Positions 5,313 to 19,730 of a DNA stretch of 64,000 nucleotides are shown in pieces. A program made the translations under genes and the position numbers. This stretch comes from the human T2T-CHM13v2.0 reference genome, Homo sapiens. Each line of letters starts with the position of its first letter. Position 1 is the stretch's first letter. The stretch is taken from the NCBI RefSeq assembly GCF_009914755.1, contig NC_060935.1, one strand, 5' to 3'. The notes beneath the pieces are model-generated. The model worked only from the letters and a program-made list of their open reading frames with translations. It had not been told where the DNA came from and searched no databases.

Positions 5313-5420
5313 TATATTATTATAGGCATAGTTCTCTTGCATAGATGAAGATGCAGTTCGTAGATCCAGTAGCATAGTCTTTTCTTAACATGACCGTTGT
5401 AATGCAGAGGAATAACTGAT
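5313..5420 (-). pseudogene. OAT1-like pseudogene exon 8 (108 nt)
   Basis: QLFLCITTVMLRKDYATGSTNCIFIYAREL vs OAT1 [30 protein letters not shown]; acceptor CAG>CAT; 1-nt deletion; donor GTGAGT intact. Confidence 0.82.
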
Positions 5421-5572
5421 ATGGAAGGGAACAAAGATGATGGCAAGGTGCTAGGAAAAGTTTGAAGGAATCTTGGGTCTTTTCCACCCTTCTAGGTAGC
5501 TGGCCTGGGGCAGATTTGGGTCTGGGTCTGGGAAAGAATTAGGACAGGAGCAGAGGTGCGGCAGATGCTTAC

Positions 5573-5787
5573 TCAGGAGCACCATTGCACAAGCCAGAAT
5601 ATAGATCTCTGAAAGCAGCAAGGAGGCCATTTGGGTAGGCCTGCGGCCCAGAAATCTGGTGACCAAAAAGCCCAGCAAATAAAATAGTGGATTCACAGTT
5701 GCAAAGAATACTTGGATCAGGTAGATATTGATTTCCAAACTTTGCAGACTTATGACTGAACTGTAGGAGCTGAAGACGATTACAGAC
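5573..5787 (-). pseudogene. OAT1-like pseudogene exon 7 (215 nt, still open)
   Basis: SVIVFSSYSSVISLQSLEINIYLIQVFF...LGRRPTQMASLLL...; 32/71 aa identical to OAT1; CAG and GTAAG intact. Confidence 0.92.
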
Positions 5788-6001
5788 CTGGGGCAGGAGC
5801 TGAAGACTATTACAGACCTGGGGCAGGAGCAGAGAGGATGTACTCTGGGTAGGAGCCATGACACATCTACATAGCAATTGCAGCTGGCAAACTACTCTCA
5901 CATCTCTTCTCTCCTTTAGACCTTACATTAGCCCTGTGCTGTGTGTGAGTGGAGTTTTTAATCTTTCAATTGCAGATAAGAAAATCTTCCCTTAATTCTA
6001 T

Positions 6002-6629
6002 TCATTTGTTTCTTTATTGAGACCGTCTCACTCTGTTACCCAGGCTGGAGTGCAGTGGCACGATCTCGGCTCACTGCAACCTCCGCCTCCCGGGTTCAAG
6101 TGATTCTCTTGCCTCAGCCTTCTGAGTAGCTAGAATTACAGGTGTGTGCCACTGTGCCTGGCTGATTTTTGTATTTTTAGTAGAGACAGGGTTTCACCAT
6201 GCTGGCCACGCTGGTCTCAAACTCCTGAGCTCAAGTGATCTGCCTTTCTTGGCCTCCCAAAATGCTGGAATTAGAGGCACGAGCCACGGCACCTGGCCAG
6301 AAATTAGATAACATTTAAAAATTATCTGGGAAAGGGCAGGTGTGGTGGCTAATGCCTGTACTCCCAGCACTTTGGGAGGCTGAGGCAGGTGGACTGCTTG
6401 AGGCCAGGAGTTCAAGACCAGCCTGGCCAACATGGCAAAACCCTGTCTCTACTAAAACTACAAAAGGGAAAATTAGCTGGGCATGGTGGAACATGCCTGT
6501 AATCCCAGCCATTCAGGAGGGTGAGACACGAGAATTACTTGAGTCCAGGAGGCAGAAGCCACAGTGAGCTGAAATTGCTTGATTGTACTCCAGCCTGGGT
6601 AACAGAGGGAGACTGTCCCCCCAAAAAAA
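6002..6629. mobile_element. Head-to-head inverted Alu pair
   Basis: Minus Alu about 6002-6297; plus Alu about 6333-6629 with TSD AAAATTATCTGGGAAA. Confidence 0.9.
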
Positions 6630-8170
6630 TTATCTGGGAAAAAATAATATTTTTTGCTTAGCAATAGGTCTCCCTTTTCCCCTCCTAATTCCCCGACCTA
6701 AGAGATCAGCTTTTGGTGGATGCTTGCATTTATAAGTTGATTGTACTGGGAAGTTTTGTGTGTGTATGTGTGTGTGTGCGTGTGTCTGTCCCTCCCCACT
6801 GGATAGCTCAAGTAACAACTGATCTGATGAACTGATAAATTCTAAGAAGTAAAGATTTATTTAACGGCAGGAGTTTTGCTTTGCTGAGTGACGAATACAA
6901 GTTTACAGCTAGACATGAATTTTTAGGACAGTGGAGGAGACCTCAGAGATTAAATGGGAGAAGAGTCAGGAGAGGGAGGAAGCATGTACAGCTGTTAGCC
7001 AAGGAAGGATTTGAAGGAGGACAGAAATGCCTATTAAGTTTTTTATGCTGTGTGGTATGTGATATAAGCATCTCCTTTATCTCCCCATGGAGTCTTGGAA
7101 AAATCGACAATGTTTAGTGACACTTTGTGGGGAAGCTTTGCTCTGAGATGTGATGTGTTCTGTGTCCTGCCTCAGCCCTGGTGAAGGGCACAGTGAGAAG
7201 CTGTCCACAAGAAGACAATCATTTATGCGCCACACTATAATTAAGAATTAAACAGAACACTATTGGCACCAGAATAGACAGACAAATCAATGGGATGAAA
7301 TAGTCCAGAAATAGTATGTGATAAGCGTGGTGTTTCACACCAGCCAGGAAAGGTGGGACTATTCATTAAGTTCATTTGGGACAATTTACCTTAGTTGTAA
7401 AACAACAACAACAATATCAACAATAACGATAATACCATAAATAAATTAAATGGAAAACTAAGATACAATATAGAAGCTCAACAAAACAAAAAGTTAGTCT
7501 TTAATAATATCAATGAAATGGACAAATCTTCGGTAACAATAATCAAAAAATGAAGGATAGAGGACATAAGCAAATATTATGAATAAAAAAGAAACAGAAC
7601 TAAAGACGCAGAGTCATTAAAAAGATGCAGAAAAAATCTATGAACAAGTCTATGCTGATGAATTTAATATTTTTGAATTTCAAATAACAGTGAACACTTT
7701 ATTTTGTAACAGCCTTATTTATATGTAATTCACATACCATACAAGCCATCCATTTCGAGTATACAATCGAATGATATTTGGTATACTCATAGATATGTAC
7801 AACCATCACCATGGTAATTTTAGAACACTTTCATCCCCTCAAACAGAAAATCGGTATCCTTTAGCTTTCAATCCCCAAACATTCATCTCTATCCCCTACC
7901 CAATCCCAAGCAACCACTAATCCATTTTTTTTTTTGATATGGAGTTTCACTCTTTTTGCCCAGGCTGGAGAAAAAATAGAATTCTACTATAATTCTAATA
8001 GAATTTCTAATAGAAAAAAATAGAATTCTACTTCCTACCCTATGTTAAACTAAATTTCAGATGAAACTATGATACAACATGAAAGCTCAAACAAATACAT
8101 TTGTGCTTGAAGAAAATCTAGGCGAATAGTTTTATACTTACGGGGAGAGGAAGGCCTTTCTAAATGTAAC

Positions 8171-17557: not shown

Positions 17558-18737
17558 CAAGGGCATCTTTTCTTTGCACGGCTGTGACTAATGGACAATG
17601 GGCCGGCAAAATCTCACTGCACTCCCCGTTGGCACACTGATAAGGTGAAGTGTGGACACCTGACTTAAGTGGGGAGGGGGAGGCGCATCAATATGAGGCA
17701 CTAAGCCAATCAGAGCCTGTTCTAGGAATGTGAATTAAGATACAGAGAAATCTTCTGGTTGCTGATGGGCTCTAAATCTGAGAAATAATGAATCAGAGCT
17801 GGGACTGGTAGTCATCCCTTAAGAAGAGCACACAGATGAAATGGATTTAAGTAGGAGAGAGGAATGGAGTCAGTGTACAGAGATGCCTCTCGTGCTCCAT
17901 TTCCTGGTTTCAGTTTCCCTGAGGCCTGAACACACTTTGTTTCCTGTTCTTGAATTCCCTGTAATCTCTGTATCCTTGCAGTCATGCCCTCTTTTCCCAA
18001 GAGCTGATTCGACGGGGTTTCTCTTCTTTATGACCAAAAGACCATTGACTAGAACAGATGTTAAGAACATGATCAATGTGACAGCTACTAAGTACAGAAT
18101 GCAGCCTGATGAACCACTCAGCAGGCCAGGGTGACTACAATTGCACGTGTGTGTGTGTGTATGTTTACGGGGAGGGGCATTAAATCACTAGAGATGAAAG
18201 GACCCTCCCCCCGCCAACCCCGCCCCATAACCATCTTCTCTTTCCCGTCTTAGTTCCTTGGCTGCTCTCCATCTCCTGGCCCCAGCTGCTAAGATCTATT
18301 TCTAGATGAAGTCAGCAAACTGTTTCTGTTTCTAAGACTCTGAGTCCAGAATTCCCTGCTCAGGAATGTCCCCTTTGCCCTCACCACCTGCACTCCTCCT
18401 CTCTCCCTTTCTCTGTATCACCTCTTCACCTTATGGGATTGTTTTATCCCTCAGGGTTTTTTGACATTTTGAGAAAATGAAGTAGACCATTCAATTCCTG
18501 TAGCAGTGTCTCTCTCTGGTGGGGGCTGGGAGGCAGGGAGCAGCTCTATGCAAGGACTCCATGTCTTCTCTGCCAGGAAGCTCCCTAGCTCCGTTCTGGG
18601 TAAAACTTTTCGAAGCTCCAGGGTCTTCCCAAATTCAGACAAAGTTGGGTCAAGGTTGCACAGTCTGCGTCTGTAGGTGGGATGGTAAGATGAGGGCACA
18701 GGGGTTGGAAGGGGGCAGAGGGCCCAGCTATCCTCAT

Positions 18738-19112
18738 TTCAGTCACAGTGGTCATTGGGAAAGTGCTGTTGTCATAAATCCAGCCATTGGTGCAGGGCTC
18801 TGTGGCCCCATGTTGTTGGCATCTGTGTCATTAGGAAAAGGTGGTCCCCACTGGGAGGAGGTGAAGTGGAGGCAGGACTGAGGCCACACCTGCCAGTCTT
18901 GGGGCAGCCAAGCCTCCAGCCACCTGTCCTTGCTGAGGTTGGCGTTGGCAGGTGGGGGCAGCAGGGGTTGGGTGGGGAGAGGCAGTGGCAGTGAAGTTTT
19001 GCAGAGTGGTGTGCAAACACAGGAGGAGCACTGGGAGGACCACCAGGGTGACTTGGATCTGCTGGAAGTAGCTGACACCCCCCATTTTCTGCATGAGGTC
19101 ATTGAAGGCCAT
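18738..19112 (-). pseudogene. OAT1-like pseudogene exon 1
   Basis: [30 protein letters not shown]...; net +7 nt near 18955-18990 and -1 nt near 18811; ends ...[16 protein letters not shown]; donor mutated GTGAG>ATGAG. Confidence 0.95.
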
Positions 19113-19282
19113 GGAACTAGGCCTGGTCAAGTGGCTGGGGGCTGGGTCTGCAAATCAAGCAACCTGTTTCCTTTCTTCCAGTGGAGGAGGAGGAGAGGGG
19201 AGGAGAGGGGCTGCCTTTGTCTCCTGCACTTATCAGTTCCTGGGTCTGCTGTAGCCCTAGGCCTCCTAATGGCCAGCAGTAG

Positions 19283-19613
19283 TTTGTTTTTGTTTGTTTG
19301 TTTTGTTTTTTGTTTTGTTTTTTTTTTTTGGGATGGAGTTTCACTCTTGTCACGCAGGCTGGAGTGCAATGGCATGATCTTGGCTCACTGCAACCTCCGC
19401 CTCCTGGGTTCAAGTGATTCTCCTGTCTCAGCCTCCCAAGTAGCTGGGATTTACAGGTGCCTGCCACCATGCCTGGCTAATTTTTGTATTCTTAGTAGAG
19501 ACGGGGTTTCACCACGTTGGCCAGGCTGGTCTCGAAATCCTGACCTCAGGTGATCCACCTGGCTCGGCCTCCCAAAGTGCTGGGATGACGGGCGTGAGCC
19601 ACCGTGCCTGGCC
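19283..19613 (-). mobile_element. AluS inserted beside the pseudogene TATA box
   Basis: TSD CAGTAGTTT at 19277-19285 and 19614-19622. Confidence 0.92.
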
Positions 19614-19730
19614 CAGTAGTTTTTATAACTTCTTTTAAAGCACCAAGTTAAACTGACTCAAGAGTCAGATATTTAATTATAAGACTCATCAGGTCAATGG
19701 TTTGTTCCAGGAGGTCAAATGGGCAAGTAA
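19614..19730 (-). promoter_or_regulatory. Relict promoter of the OAT1-like pseudogene
   Basis: TATAAAAA at 19627-19620; AGTTAAACTGACT and TCAGATATTTAAT are colinear with the SLC22A6 promoter motifs. Confidence 0.6.

What the first reader, a model, noticed from the sequence alone, without database searches (positions are those of the whole stretch)
5313..19627. A hidden third OAT gene: decayed intron-containing SLC22A6 paralogue downstream of the OAT3-OAT1 pair
Seen: five exon homologues on the minus strand in SLC22A6 order. They are ex1 18738-19112, ex5 8437-8560 (124 nt, same length), ex6 about 8171-8284, ex7 5573-5787 (215 nt, same length) and ex8 5313-5420. Intron 5 (152 vs 159 nt), the 5' UTR and the promoter also align. 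Lesions: +7 and -1 frameshifts and a GT>AT donor in ex1, TGG>TAG in ex5, -1 in ex6, and an AG>AT acceptor plus -1 in ex8. Established: OAT1/OAT3 are usually described as a tandem pair. Inference: the ancestral cluster was a trio (OAT3-OAT1-OAT1-like) and this lineage lost one transporter, which may be intact in other mammals. I do not recall an annotation for this locus but cannot check.
Basis: partly seen in the sequence, partly recalled or inferred. Interest (0 to 1): 0.85.

Follow-up and report, generated by a model that had tools for sequence, protein, structure and literature searches.

The report
Fossil of a lost OAT1-like transporter
Next to the human kidney drug-transporter genes OAT1 and OAT3 lies the unannotated wreck of a third, OAT1-like transporter gene that still has an open reading frame in cattle, goat and hippo but has been broken on the human line, probably for a very long time.

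Summary
Exons 1, 5, 6, 7 and 8 of an intron-containing SLC22 gene lie collinear on the minus strand (blastn blocks E=4.5e-99, 1.7e-50, 1e-18). I found two more exons, 9 and 10, 3.7-4.2 kb beyond the window's left edge. Exons 2-4 are undetectable. The "promoter alignment" is not supported.

It is not a decayed copy of today's SLC22A6. It is the human orthologue of a distinct gene ("L"), which NCBI names "SLC22A6-like" in hippo. L has full-length open frames in hippo, cattle and goat. Exons 7-8 fall inside the L clade (100/100), and AU tests reject placement with OAT1 (p=0.0014). Exon 9 also joins L (100/96). The relic carries the L state at 13 of 15 fixed-difference sites in exon 7.

The 5' end looks OAT1-like, most likely through gene conversion. 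In goat, the L and OAT1 exon-1 loops are 80/81 identical while other exons are about 50%.

L replaces both pocket cations of OAT1 (K382 to Y, R466 to N).

RefSeq does not annotate the relic, and I found no paper on it. Interest is moderate.

The parts
18738..19112 (-). Relic exon 1. The ATG at 19112 is kept. Net +7 and -1 frameshifts. The donor just 3' of the exon (18737-18736) is GT>AT.
   Evidence: tblastn E=4.5e-18. blastn 79.1% over 449 nt, E=4.5e-99. Alignment. 81% nt identity to SLC22A6 exon 1. CpG count 1 against 11 in SLC22A6. Recovered independently at chr11:62948729-62949112.
19113..19179 (-). Proximal 5'UTR homology, about 67 nt upstream of the ATG. Nothing alignable beyond it except an Alu.
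   Evidence: This is the end of the blastn block 18733-19179. The rest of the UTR is no better than shuffles. Alu-Alu match at 19321-19613. Masked repeat at 19277-19619.
8561..18737 (-). Interval where exons 2, 3 and 4 should lie (10.2 kb, against about 2.9 kb in SLC22A6). No exon relic is detectable. It holds many annotated repeat blocks.
   Evidence: No credible hit with exon peptides of 8 human paralogues or exon DNA of 3 (all E>0.02, none collinear), nor with 4 L proteins. Repeat intervals.
8437..8560 (-). Relic exon 5 (124 nt, length kept). AG acceptor and GT donor are kept. In-frame TGG>TAG at 8538-8536 (OAT1 W274).
   Evidence: tblastn 61%, E=7e-8. Alignment. Stop confirmed. 75% nt identity to SLC22A6.
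8285..8436 (-). Relic intron 5 (152 nt, against 159 in SLC22A6).
   Evidence: 59.3% identity over 150 aligned nt, K80=0.64. The 20 shuffles averaged 45.6% with a maximum of 51.4%.
8171..8284 (-). Relic exon 6 with a -1 frameshift. Homology fades towards its 3' end.
   Evidence: Alignment. 68% nt identity to SLC22A6. Lies inside the blastn block 8180-8634.
5573..5787 (-). Relic exon 7 (215 nt, open frame, GT donor kept). It is clearly L-type and carries Tyr at the position of OAT1 Lys382.
   Evidence: Cattle L 62% over 69 aa, E=6.7e-21, against human OAT1 53% over 60 aa, E=4.3e-12. L state at 13 of 15 fixed-difference sites, OAT1 state at 0. Tree. Residue 382. It is the best human match to L exon 7 genome-wide.
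5765..5830 (-). 30-nt tandem duplication (2.2 copies) spanning the exon 7 acceptor and the first 23 nt of exon 7.
   Evidence: Tandem Repeats Finder: period 30, 97% matches, score 125. Visible in the alignment.
5421..5572 (-). Relic intron 7 (152 nt, against 137 in SLC22A6). It ends in AT instead of AG.
   Evidence: 51.5% identity, equal to the best of 20 shuffles, so homology rests on position only. The last two bases read AT.
5313..5420 (-). Relic exon 8 (108 nt against 109). Acceptor lost, -1 near the 3' end, strongly AT-shifted (GC 0.35 against 0.53).
   Evidence: E=0.011 with cattle or goat L, and 2.2 with OAT1. 53% nt identity to SLC22A6. Composition.
1..5312 (-). Relic intron 8. It runs on past the window's left edge to exon 9 at chr11:62,926,125-62,926,336 (window -3875 to -3664). 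Exon 10 lies at about chr11:62,925,774-62,925,837 (window about -4226 to -4163).
   Evidence: Hippo L aa 454-525 match L034 5938-5726 (66.7% over 72 aa, E=1e-20). Hippo L aa 522-542 match L034 5439-5377 (81% over 21 aa, E=0.088, collinear). Exon 9 has an AG acceptor, a GT donor, and is 212 nt against 204, so the frame shifts into a TGA. The genome search recovers chr11:62926126-62926341 with 1 TGA.

Best explanation
The interval holds an old, unprocessed, unitary pseudogene. It is the human remnant of a fourth member of the OAT1/OAT3/OAT6 group, here called L. NCBI names L "SLC22A6-like" in hippo and labels it an SLC22A6 isoform in cattle.

Shown:
- The gene sat immediately downstream of SLC22A6 on the same strand.
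- Seven of its ten exons are still recognisable over about 23.3 kb (chr11:62,925,774-62,949,112).
- It is disabled many times over: frameshifts in exons 1, 6, 8 and 9; a nonsense codon in exon 5; a lost donor (exon 1) and a lost acceptor (exon 8); and no trace of exons 2-4.
- Its 3' exons are L-type, not OAT1-type.

Inferred:
- The OAT1/L duplication predates the split of the human and cetartiodactyl lines (Boreoeutheria), and possibly the placental root.
- L was a working gene that diverged strongly from OAT1. It replaced the two basic pocket residues that OAT1 uses for alpha-ketoglutarate (Lys382 to Tyr) and chloride (Arg466 to Asn), while keeping the gating salt-bridge residues. So it probably had a different substrate or coupling profile.
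- It was then lost on the human line a long time ago.
- The relic's 5' part (exon 1, perhaps through exons 5-6) resembles SLC22A6 because of gene conversion between the tandem neighbours. The same is seen today in ruminants.
- The relic has no function now.
For: Reality and gene structure: and independently.

Nearest human paralogue: SLC22A6 is nearest of 9 chr11 OAT-clade genes in every exon. Nucleotide trees give 100/99, 100/99 and 99/98.

A distinct L clade: 9 of 126 retrieved proteins carry L-type segments. L and OAT1 each form one side of a branch: 100/100 for exons 7-8, 100/98 for exons 5-6, 100/99 for exons 2-4.

Relic orthology to L:
- Exons 7-8 sit inside L at 100/100. AU tests reject relic+OAT1 (p=0.0014) and relic+human/orang OAT1 (p=0.0006).
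- Exon 9: relic+L 100/96, with the relic sister to cetartiodactyl L (99/91), as the species tree predicts.
- At fixed OAT1-versus-L sites the relic has 21 L, 10 OAT1 and 12 neither. Exon 7 alone is 13 L, 0 OAT1, 2 neither. Of the 33 non-OAT1 sites, 21 equal the L state, binomial p=3e-19 against a chance rate of 1/19.
- The relic has Tyr382 and Asn466, like 6 of 6 L proteins. OAT1 has Lys at 382 in 22 of 22 and Arg at 466 in 21 of 21 filled rows.

No other L-type locus exists in the human reference.

Tandem position in another species: argali L and OAT1 have adjacent locus tags, and the rhino fragment and rhino OAT1 are on one contig.

Gene conversion:
- Goat L against goat OAT1: exon 1 is 112/123 identical and the loop (aa 43-123) 80/81, while the other exons with meaningful alignment are 43-69%.
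- Cetartiodactyl L exon 1 nests within cetartiodactyl OAT1 (92/86).
- In human, dS between A6 and the relic rises from 0.34 (exon 1) to 0.60 (exons 5-6; intron 5 K80=0.64) to about 2 (exons 7-8).
- Signature states differ between exon 7 and exon 5 (Fisher p=0.0018).

Antiquity: CpG 1 against 11 in exon 1; GC down to 0.35-0.44 in exons 7-8; relic end branch 0.34-0.59 aa changes per site against 0-0.13 for end branches of intact L.

Wider distribution: the hyena fragment is in L (100/99; AU against OAT1 p=0.002). Armadillo exon 3 joins L (94/89; AU against OAT1 p=0.042).

Role of the two residues (passages of PMC10643130): Lys382 binds alpha-ketoglutarate and its Ala mutant is non-functional. 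Arg466 holds chloride and neither Ala nor Lys there supports function. [quoted passage not shown]
Against: - Exons 5-6 do not resolve. Relic+L is only 71/54, and relic+OAT1 or relic+human OAT1 are not rejected (p=0.53, 0.47). In exon 5 the relic has 3 OAT1 states and 0 L states.
- Exon 1 is a polytomy: AU p=0.10 for relic+L and 0.38 for relic+primate OAT1.
- Exon 8 is 2 L, 2 OAT1, 3 neither. Exon 9 is 4 L, 3 OAT1, 3 neither, and AU against OAT1 is only p=0.12.
- In the exon 7-8 tree the relic sits beside ruminant L (87/81) rather than outside all cetartiodactyl L. That is probably a long-branch effect. Both the relic branch and the L stem (0.67) are long, so tree support could be inflated.
- I had only proteins, no DNA and no genomic context, for other species. 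Synteny rests on locus-tag adjacency.
- Whether L works in cetartiodactyls is inferred from open frames only. L scores below the curated cut-off of TIGR00898 (500.6 and 488.1 against 550.75).
- 51 of the 171 hits were not listed. Another 250, 47 and 50 sample-only candidates were left out of the three searches. So the taxonomic distribution is incomplete.
- There is no marsupial, monotreme or sauropsid OAT1 in the trees, so the age of the duplication has only a lower bound.
- The armadillo model is mixed: exon 2 is OAT1-like and exon 3 L-like.
Confidence: 0.85

Rival explanations
1. A lineage-specific (primate or human-line) tandem duplicate of SLC22A6 itself. It was dead on arrival or died soon after, and has no orthologue elsewhere.
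For: Among human genes SLC22A6 is the nearest in every exon. Exon 1 is 81% and exon 5 is 75% identical to SLC22A6. Exon 5 signature states are OAT1-type (3 of 4). Placement of exons 1 and 5-6 with human OAT1 is not rejected.
Against: Exons 7-8 with human/orang OAT1 are rejected (AU p=0.0006). 13 of 15 exon 7 signature sites, plus Tyr382 and Asn466, are L states. dS of about 2 in exons 7-8 is at least as large as OAT1 against OAT3 (1.5). Intron 5 K80 of 0.64 is far too deep for a primate-age copy.
Confidence: 0.04
2. L arose only in cetartiodactyls. The human relic is an unrelated old OAT1 copy that groups with L through long-branch attraction or chance convergence.
For: Both branches are long (relic 0.59, L stem 0.67). 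A paper calls the second SLC22A6 a "porcine or artiodactyl-specific" expansion (passage of PMC5568366). All full-length L proteins retrieved are cetartiodactyl.
Against: The sharing is of identical residues at many sites: 21 of the 33 sites where the relic differs from OAT1 equal the L state, p=3e-19. Hyena exons 2-3 are L-type (100/99; AU p=0.002). Rhino and reindeer fragments share Leu33 with L and the relic. In exon 9 the relic is sister to, not inside, cetartiodactyl L.
Confidence: 0.05
3. The relic is not inert. Part of it survives as a regulatory element, a non-coding transcript or a short ORF.
For: A lncRNA model (LOC105369333, plus strand) spans the interval. RefSeq lists a silencer at 17999-18291. 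Mechanical ORFs of 116 and 99 aa overlap exon 1. Exon 1 is the best preserved part.
Against: No minus-strand transcript is annotated. The ORFs are out of frame with the transporter for much of their length. CpG loss and the AT shift fit neutral decay. The better preservation of exon 1 is explained by gene conversion. No expression or conservation data were available here.
Confidence: 0.06

Closest known systems
SLC22A6 (OAT1), the upstream neighbour
   Same: Same strand and tandem position. Same exon-intron plan: exons of 124 and 215 nt, and intron 5 of 152 against 159 nt. It is the nearest human paralogue in every exon. Intact L is 61-64% identical to OAT1, and its best solved-structure matches are OAT1 chains (E=1.8e-234; URAT1 comes next at 1e-121).
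   Different: L is a separate clade. It lacks Lys382 and Arg466 and changes Tyr230, Ser350, Tyr353 and Phe438. The relic is broken, while SLC22A6 is intact.
"SLC22A6-like" gene models of cetartiodactyls (hippo P0039, cattle P0044/P0045, goat P0052, argali P0048, sheep hybrid P0065; low-quality models in two baleen whales, P0077 and P0114)
   Same: The human relic shares their diagnostic states in exons 7 and 9, including Tyr382 and Asn466, and groups with them in trees.
   Different: Hippo, cattle and goat models have open frames of 540-549 aa. The human copy has lost exons 2-4 and carries at least eight disabling lesions. In exons 1 and 5 the human copy is no closer to them than to OAT1.
SLC22A20P (OAT6), the known human unitary pseudogene of the same subclade
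   Same: An intron-containing SLC22 gene of the OAT1/OAT3/OAT6 group on chr11 that is dead in human and functional in other mammals. Papers list it as a unitary pseudogene with rodent and rabbit counterparts (passages of PMC7555810 and PMC3491395).
   Different: SLC22A20P is annotated and transcribed, and keeps all ten exons; exon 3 is 154 nt where its paralogues have 155. The relic here is unannotated in RefSeq, much more decayed, and lacks three exons.
SLC22A10, a transporter being lost in humans
   Same: Another example of lineage-specific loss in the chr11 SLC22 clusters. From the abstract of PMC11116522: the human protein is not at the plasma membrane, while great-ape orthologues transport estradiol-17beta-glucuronide.
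   Different: That loss is recent. This one is ancient and structurally destructive.

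Membership tests
SLC22 / major facilitator superfamily transporter gene | Protein matches the family models (Pfam Sugar_tr PF00083 and MFS_1 PF07690; NCBIfam TIGR00898). | tested here: inconclusive
   Intact hippo L: PF00083 E=5.5e-25 and PF07690 E=2.9e-21, both above the gathering scores. 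On TIGR00898, L scores 500.6 and 488.1 bits, below the curated 550.75. Human OAT1 scores 669.5. The relic's exon 7 (71 aa) and exon 9 (64 aa) translations alone gave 0 Pfam families, because they are too short.
SLC22 / major facilitator superfamily transporter gene | The conserved OAT-clade exon plan (104/155/169/124/116/215/109/204 nt). | tested here: met
   Relic exons 5 and 7 are 124 and 215 nt. Exon 8 is 108 nt, exon 6 is 114 nt and exon 9 is 212 nt, each differing by a frameshifting indel.
SLC22A6 (OAT1) orthologue group | Groups with OAT1 sequences to the exclusion of other paralogues. | tested here: not met
   Exons 7-8: AU rejects relic+OAT1, p=0.0014. Exon 9 groups with L at 100/96. 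Exons 1 and 5-6 are unresolved.
SLC22A6 (OAT1) orthologue group | The basic pocket residues Lys382 (alpha-ketoglutarate) and Arg466 (chloride), as described in PMC10643130. | tested here: not met
   The relic has Tyr and Asn. OAT1 has Lys in 22 of 22 and Arg in 21 of 21 filled rows. Role of the residues: passages read.
L ("SLC22A6-like") orthologue group | Shares the fixed states that separate L from OAT1. | tested here: met
   21 L, 10 OAT1 and 12 neither over 43 sites. Exon 7 is 13/0/2. Leave-one-out controls: human OAT1 scores 33 of 33 OAT1 states, and hippo L scores 33 L, 1 OAT1 and 5 neither.
L ("SLC22A6-like") orthologue group | Same genomic position (between SLC22A6 and CHRM1) in species with an intact copy. 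| not testable with these tools
   No mammalian genome other than human could be read. The only hints are adjacent locus tags for argali L and OAT1, and one shared contig for the rhino fragment and rhino OAT1.
Unitary (unprocessed) pseudogene | Introns retained and multiple disabling lesions. | tested here: met
   Introns 5 and 7 are in place. Frameshifts in exons 1, 6, 8 and 9; TAG in exon 5; lost donor and lost acceptor; exons 2-4 absent.
Unitary (unprocessed) pseudogene | No intact copy of the same gene elsewhere in the genome. | tested here: met
   A six-frame search of the whole reference with hippo L gave 53 matches. All lie in annotated SLC22 genes, in this relic, or in two other unannotated fragments that resemble other family members. 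A few regions of the reference are closed.
Unitary (unprocessed) pseudogene | A functional orthologue in other species. | tested here: inconclusive
   Open frames of 540-549 aa in hippo, cattle and goat, 78-80% identical to one another, with gating residues kept. Expression and transport were not testable.

The most novel reading that the evidence does not exclude
L is a fourth, ancestral placental member of the OAT1/OAT3/OAT6 group. It rebuilt its binding pocket by removing both cationic anchors (Lys382 to Tyr, Arg466 to Asn), and so stopped being a chloride-tuned organic anion/dicarboxylate exchanger. It survives in cetartiodactyls. It was lost independently on several lines: human, hyena, rhino and baleen whales. 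Its exon-1 extracellular loop is kept identical to that of OAT1 by recurrent gene conversion, which would imply that the loop serves a function common to both proteins.
Probability: 0.35. Interest if true: 0.7.

Novelty: new member of a known kind. Interest (0 to 1): 0.55.

Why it matters
OAT1 and OAT3 are central to renal drug and toxin clearance and are usually described as a tandem pair. The relic shows that the pair was once a trio.

The "second SLC22A6" of artiodactyls has been described as a porcine or artiodactyl-specific expansion. It is more likely an old gene that the human line lost.

Three consequences follow:
1. Orthology tables need care. NCBI labels the cattle L protein an SLC22A6 isoform.
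2. Livestock appear to carry an extra OAT1-type carrier with an uncharged pocket. This may affect how renal drug handling is extrapolated between livestock, rodents and humans.
3. The locus is a clear natural example of exon-limited gene conversion between tandem transporters.

It does not change human physiology, because the human copy is long dead.

Tried and rejected
- Unmasked blastn of the SLC22A6 gene against the downstream region was swamped by Alu matches. I repeated it after masking the annotated repeats.
- Exons 2, 3, 4, 9 and 10 were sought inside the window with exon peptides of 8 human paralogues, exon DNA of 3, and later 4 L proteins. Nothing credible was found. Exons 9-10 were then found outside the window. 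Exons 2-4 were never found.
- I first read the 5'-to-3' fall in identity (81% to 53%) as possibly a poor alignment or uneven decay (note). The L proteins explained it.
- dN/dS between SLC22A6 and the relic (0.41, bootstrap 0.31-0.54) seemed at first to show a long functional life. I no longer use it for that, because it compares two different genes.
Exons 7-8 and 5-6 were rerun with LG+G4.
- The AU test "armadillo + L" was ill-posed, because the hyena row, which sits inside L, was left out of the held group. It was replaced by the exon 3 test.
- Pfam on single relic exons found nothing.
- Literature:
  - Searches found no paper on this locus or on a mammalian "SLC22A6-like" gene.
  - read two papers that turned out to concern other "member 6-like" genes.
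  - One search was badly designed (common terms swamped the phrase) and was repeated.
  - "slc22a6l" is a zebrafish name for oat3.
  - The SLC22 pseudogene in PMC7555810 and PMC3491395 is SLC22A20P.
- Supplements were closed. Additional file 3 of PMC5568366 (the two porcine SLC22A6 members) and Table S1 of PMC7555810 could bear on novelty and were not seen.
- GENCODE/Ensembl could not be consulted.
- Rows in the trees:
  - Of the 126 retrieved proteins I used 28 in the main trees: 21 OAT1, chosen by eye as roughly one to three per order, plus 7 L-type. I added 5 human paralogues, one of them OAT1, spliced from the reference.
  - The hyena fragment P0006 was added for the exon 2-4 and exon 3 trees.
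  - The armadillo row was left out of the exon 7-8 and exon 9 trees because it had little or no aligned data there.
  - treekit dropped argali from exons 5-6 and the two whales from exon 3.

Full report
WHAT IS THERE. RefSeq annotates nothing on the minus strand between CHRM1 and SLC22A6. The only models there are a plus-strand lncRNA and a 7SL pseudogene. tblastn of human OAT1, spliced from the window, against window 1-35000 finds collinear minus-strand matches:
- exon 1: 19112-18624, E=4.5e-18, with a second frame covering aa 53-104
- exon 5: 8559-8437, E=7e-8
- exon 7: 5774-5595, E=4.7e-12
- exon 6 (E=0.095) and exon 8 (E=2.2), both weak

After masking annotated repeats, blastn of the SLC22A6 gene gives five hits. 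Three are collinear same-strand blocks: 79.1% over 449 nt (E=4.5e-99), 66.5% over 466 nt (E=1.7e-50) and 59% over 458 nt (E=1e-18). The other two are short matches near 34.9 kb, outside the relic. The SLC22A8 gene gives almost nothing.

- net +7 and -1 in exon 1, and its GT>AT donor
- TGG>TAG in exon 5 at 8538-8536, OAT1 W274
- -1 in exon 6
- AG>AT acceptor and -1 in exon 8

Intron 5 (152 nt against 159) aligns at 59%, above all 20 shuffles. Intron 7 only ties the best shuffle.

The claimed promoter homology is not there. Only about 67 nt upstream of the ATG align, and what lies beyond is an Alu matching the Alus upstream of SLC22A6. A 30-nt tandem duplication straddles the exon 7 acceptor.

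WHICH GENE IT CAME FROM: HUMAN PARALOGUES. Exon sizes are shared by the whole OAT clade, so equal lengths do not point to OAT1. Against nine human chr11 genes, SLC22A6 is the closest in every exon. Identity falls from 81% (exon 1) through 75%, 68% and 60% to 53% (exon 8). Nucleotide trees place the relic as sister of SLC22A6 in each segment: 100/99, 100/99 and 99/98. Synonymous divergence is very uneven: 0.34 in exon 1, 0.60 in exons 5-6 (intron 5 K80=0.64), and about 2 in exons 7-8. That last value is no less than OAT1 against OAT3. A single duplicate decaying uniformly does not predict this.

THE KEY: A SECOND OAT1-TYPE GENE IN OTHER MAMMALS. A passage in a porcine database paper lists "SLC22A6 (2 members)" among porcine or artiodactyl-specific expansions (PMC5568366). 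I used the three protein searches as a ladder and retrieved 126 proteins. Nine of them carry segments of a distinct type, here called L:
- hippo P0039 ("SLC22A6-like", 542 aa)
- cattle P0044 (labelled SLC22A6 isoform X2, 540 aa) and cattle P0045
- goat P0052 (549 aa)
- argali P0048, whose locus tag is adjacent to argali OAT1
- a sheep hybrid, P0065
- two "LOW QUALITY" baleen-whale models, P0077 and P0114
- a degenerate hyena fragment, P0006

L and OAT1 separate cleanly in trees of exons 2-4, 5-6 and 7-8: 100/99, 100/98 and 100/100. L is 61-64% identical to OAT1, and 78-80% identical between hippo and ruminants. Its best solved-structure relatives are OAT1 chains. It passes the Pfam transporter models but falls below the curated TIGR00898 cut-off.

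THE HUMAN RELIC IS L.
- With L proteins as queries, exon 7 improves (cattle L 62% over 69 aa, E=6.7e-21, against OAT1 53%, E=4e-12) and exon 8 becomes detectable (E=0.011).
- In the exon 7-8 protein tree the relic is inside L at 100/100. AU tests reject holding it with all OAT1 (p=0.0014) or with human/orang OAT1 (p=0.0006).
- L queries also revealed two exons outside the window, in the 18.7 kb towards CHRM1. Exon 9 is at chr11:62,926,125-62,926,336: 66.7% to hippo L over 72 aa, E=1e-20, AG and GT sites kept, 212 nt against 204, so the frame shifts into a TGA. Exon 10 is at about chr11:62,925,774-62,925,837 and ends at a stop like L.
- Exon 9 groups with L at 100/96, with the relic sister to cetartiodactyl L (99/91). 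AU against OAT1 is p=0.12.
- A model-free count guards against long-branch artefacts. At sites where OAT1 and L each have their own near-fixed residue, the relic has the L state at 21, the OAT1 state at 10 and neither at 12. Exon 7 alone is 13/0/2. The leave-one-out controls behave as expected. The probability of 21 L states among 33 non-OAT1 sites by chance is 3e-19.
- A six-frame search of the whole reference with hippo L independently recovers relic exons 1, 7 and 9. It ranks the relic above SLC22A6 for exon 7 and finds no other L-type locus and no stray exons 2-4.

WHY THE 5' END LOOKS LIKE OAT1. Exon 1 and exons 5-6 of the relic do not resolve between L and OAT1. Exon 5 carries 3 OAT1 states and no L state. 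That differs from exon 7 (Fisher p=0.0018).

The same 5'-to-3' pattern exists where both genes are intact. Goat L and goat OAT1 are 112/123 identical in exon 1, and 80/81 in the extracellular loop. They are only 43-69% identical in exons 2-9. Cetartiodactyl L exon 1 nests within cetartiodactyl OAT1 (92/86).

This is the signature of gene conversion limited to the 5' end. I infer the same happened on the human line before or around the time of inactivation. The timing is not resolved.

AGE. The relic and cetartiodactyl L share derived states, so the duplication predates the Boreoeutherian ancestor. Three other fragments bear on this:
- The hyena fragment is L-type (100/99; AU against OAT1 p=0.002).
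- Rhino and reindeer fragments share Leu33 with L and the relic.
- The armadillo "6-like" model is L-type in exon 3 (94/89; AU against OAT1 p=0.042) but OAT1-like in exon 2.

A pre-placental origin is therefore possible but not shown.

The loss on the human line looks old:
- CpG count is 1 against 11 in exon 1.
- GC has fallen to 0.35-0.44 in exons 7-8.
- Three exons are gone.
- The relic's end branch is 0.34-0.59 amino-acid changes per site, against 0-0.13 for end branches of intact L.

From recalled neutral rates, this fits inactivation tens of millions of years ago, plausibly before the primate radiation. That is an inference. Shared lesions in other primates would test it.

HOW INTACT L PROBABLY WORKS. 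L keeps the residues that the OAT1 structure paper ties to gating salt bridges: R161, E212, R219, D378, K431, E447 and R454. The one exception is humpback, which has Q at 454. L replaces the ligand and chloride contacts:
- K382 to Y (6 of 6 L, and the relic)
- R466 to N (6 of 6 L, and the relic)
- Y230 to T or P
- S350 to L
- Y353 to L or F
- F438 to L, I or M

In OAT1, Lys382 binds alpha-ketoglutarate and its Ala mutant is dead. Arg466 holds the regulatory chloride, and neither Ala nor Lys there works. An equivalent arginine is said to occur in all OATs (passages of PMC10643130). So L is unlikely to be a chloride-tuned anion/dicarboxylate exchanger of the OAT1 kind. Its substrates are unknown.

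KNOWN OR NEW. NCBI's pipeline already names L-type proteins in several species, and one paper lists a second artiodactyl SLC22A6. I found no paper on a human relic, on a mammalian "SLC22A6-like" gene, or on a pseudogene between CHRM1 and SLC22A6 (searches; passages). RefSeq does not annotate it. GENCODE and two relevant supplements could not be checked.

VERDICT. This is a real, old, unitary pseudogene. The new points are the orthology to L, the two extra exons, the mosaic 5' end, and the altered pocket of L. It is a new member of a known kind, of moderate interest.

Noticed in passing
window 5765-5830: A 30-nt unit is repeated 2.2 times (97% matches). It duplicates the exon 7 acceptor and the first 23 nt of relic exon 7.
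   Followed up: partly
proteins P0052 and P0025 (goat L and goat OAT1): The exon-1 extracellular loop (aa 43-123) is 80/81 identical between the two goat paralogues. Exons 2-9 are only 43-69% identical. This points to exon-limited gene conversion between intact tandem transporters.
   Followed up: partly
proteins P0044 and P0045 (cattle): The cattle L protein is named "solute carrier family 22 member 6 isoform X2", and a frameshifted model of it is named "uncharacterized protein". It is a different gene from OAT1, so the name can mislead orthology tables.
   Followed up: partly
proteins P0077 and P0114 (humpback and Rice's whale): Both L models are flagged LOW QUALITY and lack the exon 3-4 region, and Rice's whale also lacks part of exon 8. 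This may be an independent loss of L in baleen whales.
   Followed up: no
proteins P0007, P0008 and P0009 (polar bear, pilot whale, chimpanzee): These database "proteins" consist of OAT1 exon 1 followed by out-of-frame translation of later exons. They are mis-spliced models rather than real isoforms.
   Followed up: no
G000 chr11:63255122-63255523 (-) and chr11:63343278-63343409 (+): Two SLC22-like exon matches sit in the SLC22A9/10/24/25 cluster where RefSeq annotates nothing. One is an open 402-nt exon-1-like stretch (41% to hippo L aa 1-123, E=4e-13). The other is an exon-3-like piece with a TAG. They may be further unannotated SLC22 relics.
   Followed up: no
L008/L009/L024 (SLC22A10) and L010-L013, L025-L027 (SLC22A24): The annotated coding exons of SLC22A10 and SLC22A24, spliced from this assembly, each translate with one internal stop in addition to the terminal one. 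RefSeq calls SLC22A10 "gene/pseudogene".
   Followed up: no
L004 (SLC22A20P exon 3, chr11:65210814-65210967): Exon 3 of SLC22A20P is 154 nt where all its paralogues have 155. This frameshift fits its pseudogene status.
   Followed up: no
window 17999-18291: RefSeq lists a HepG2 "silencer" tile inside what was intron 1 of the relic. I saw no link to the relic.
   Followed up: no
window 43489-44208 (-): The reading frame of SLC22A6 exon 1 stays open through 240 nt of 5'UTR and 111 nt of intron 1, giving a 239-aa mechanical ORF. It is probably a by-product of GC-rich sequence.
   Followed up: no
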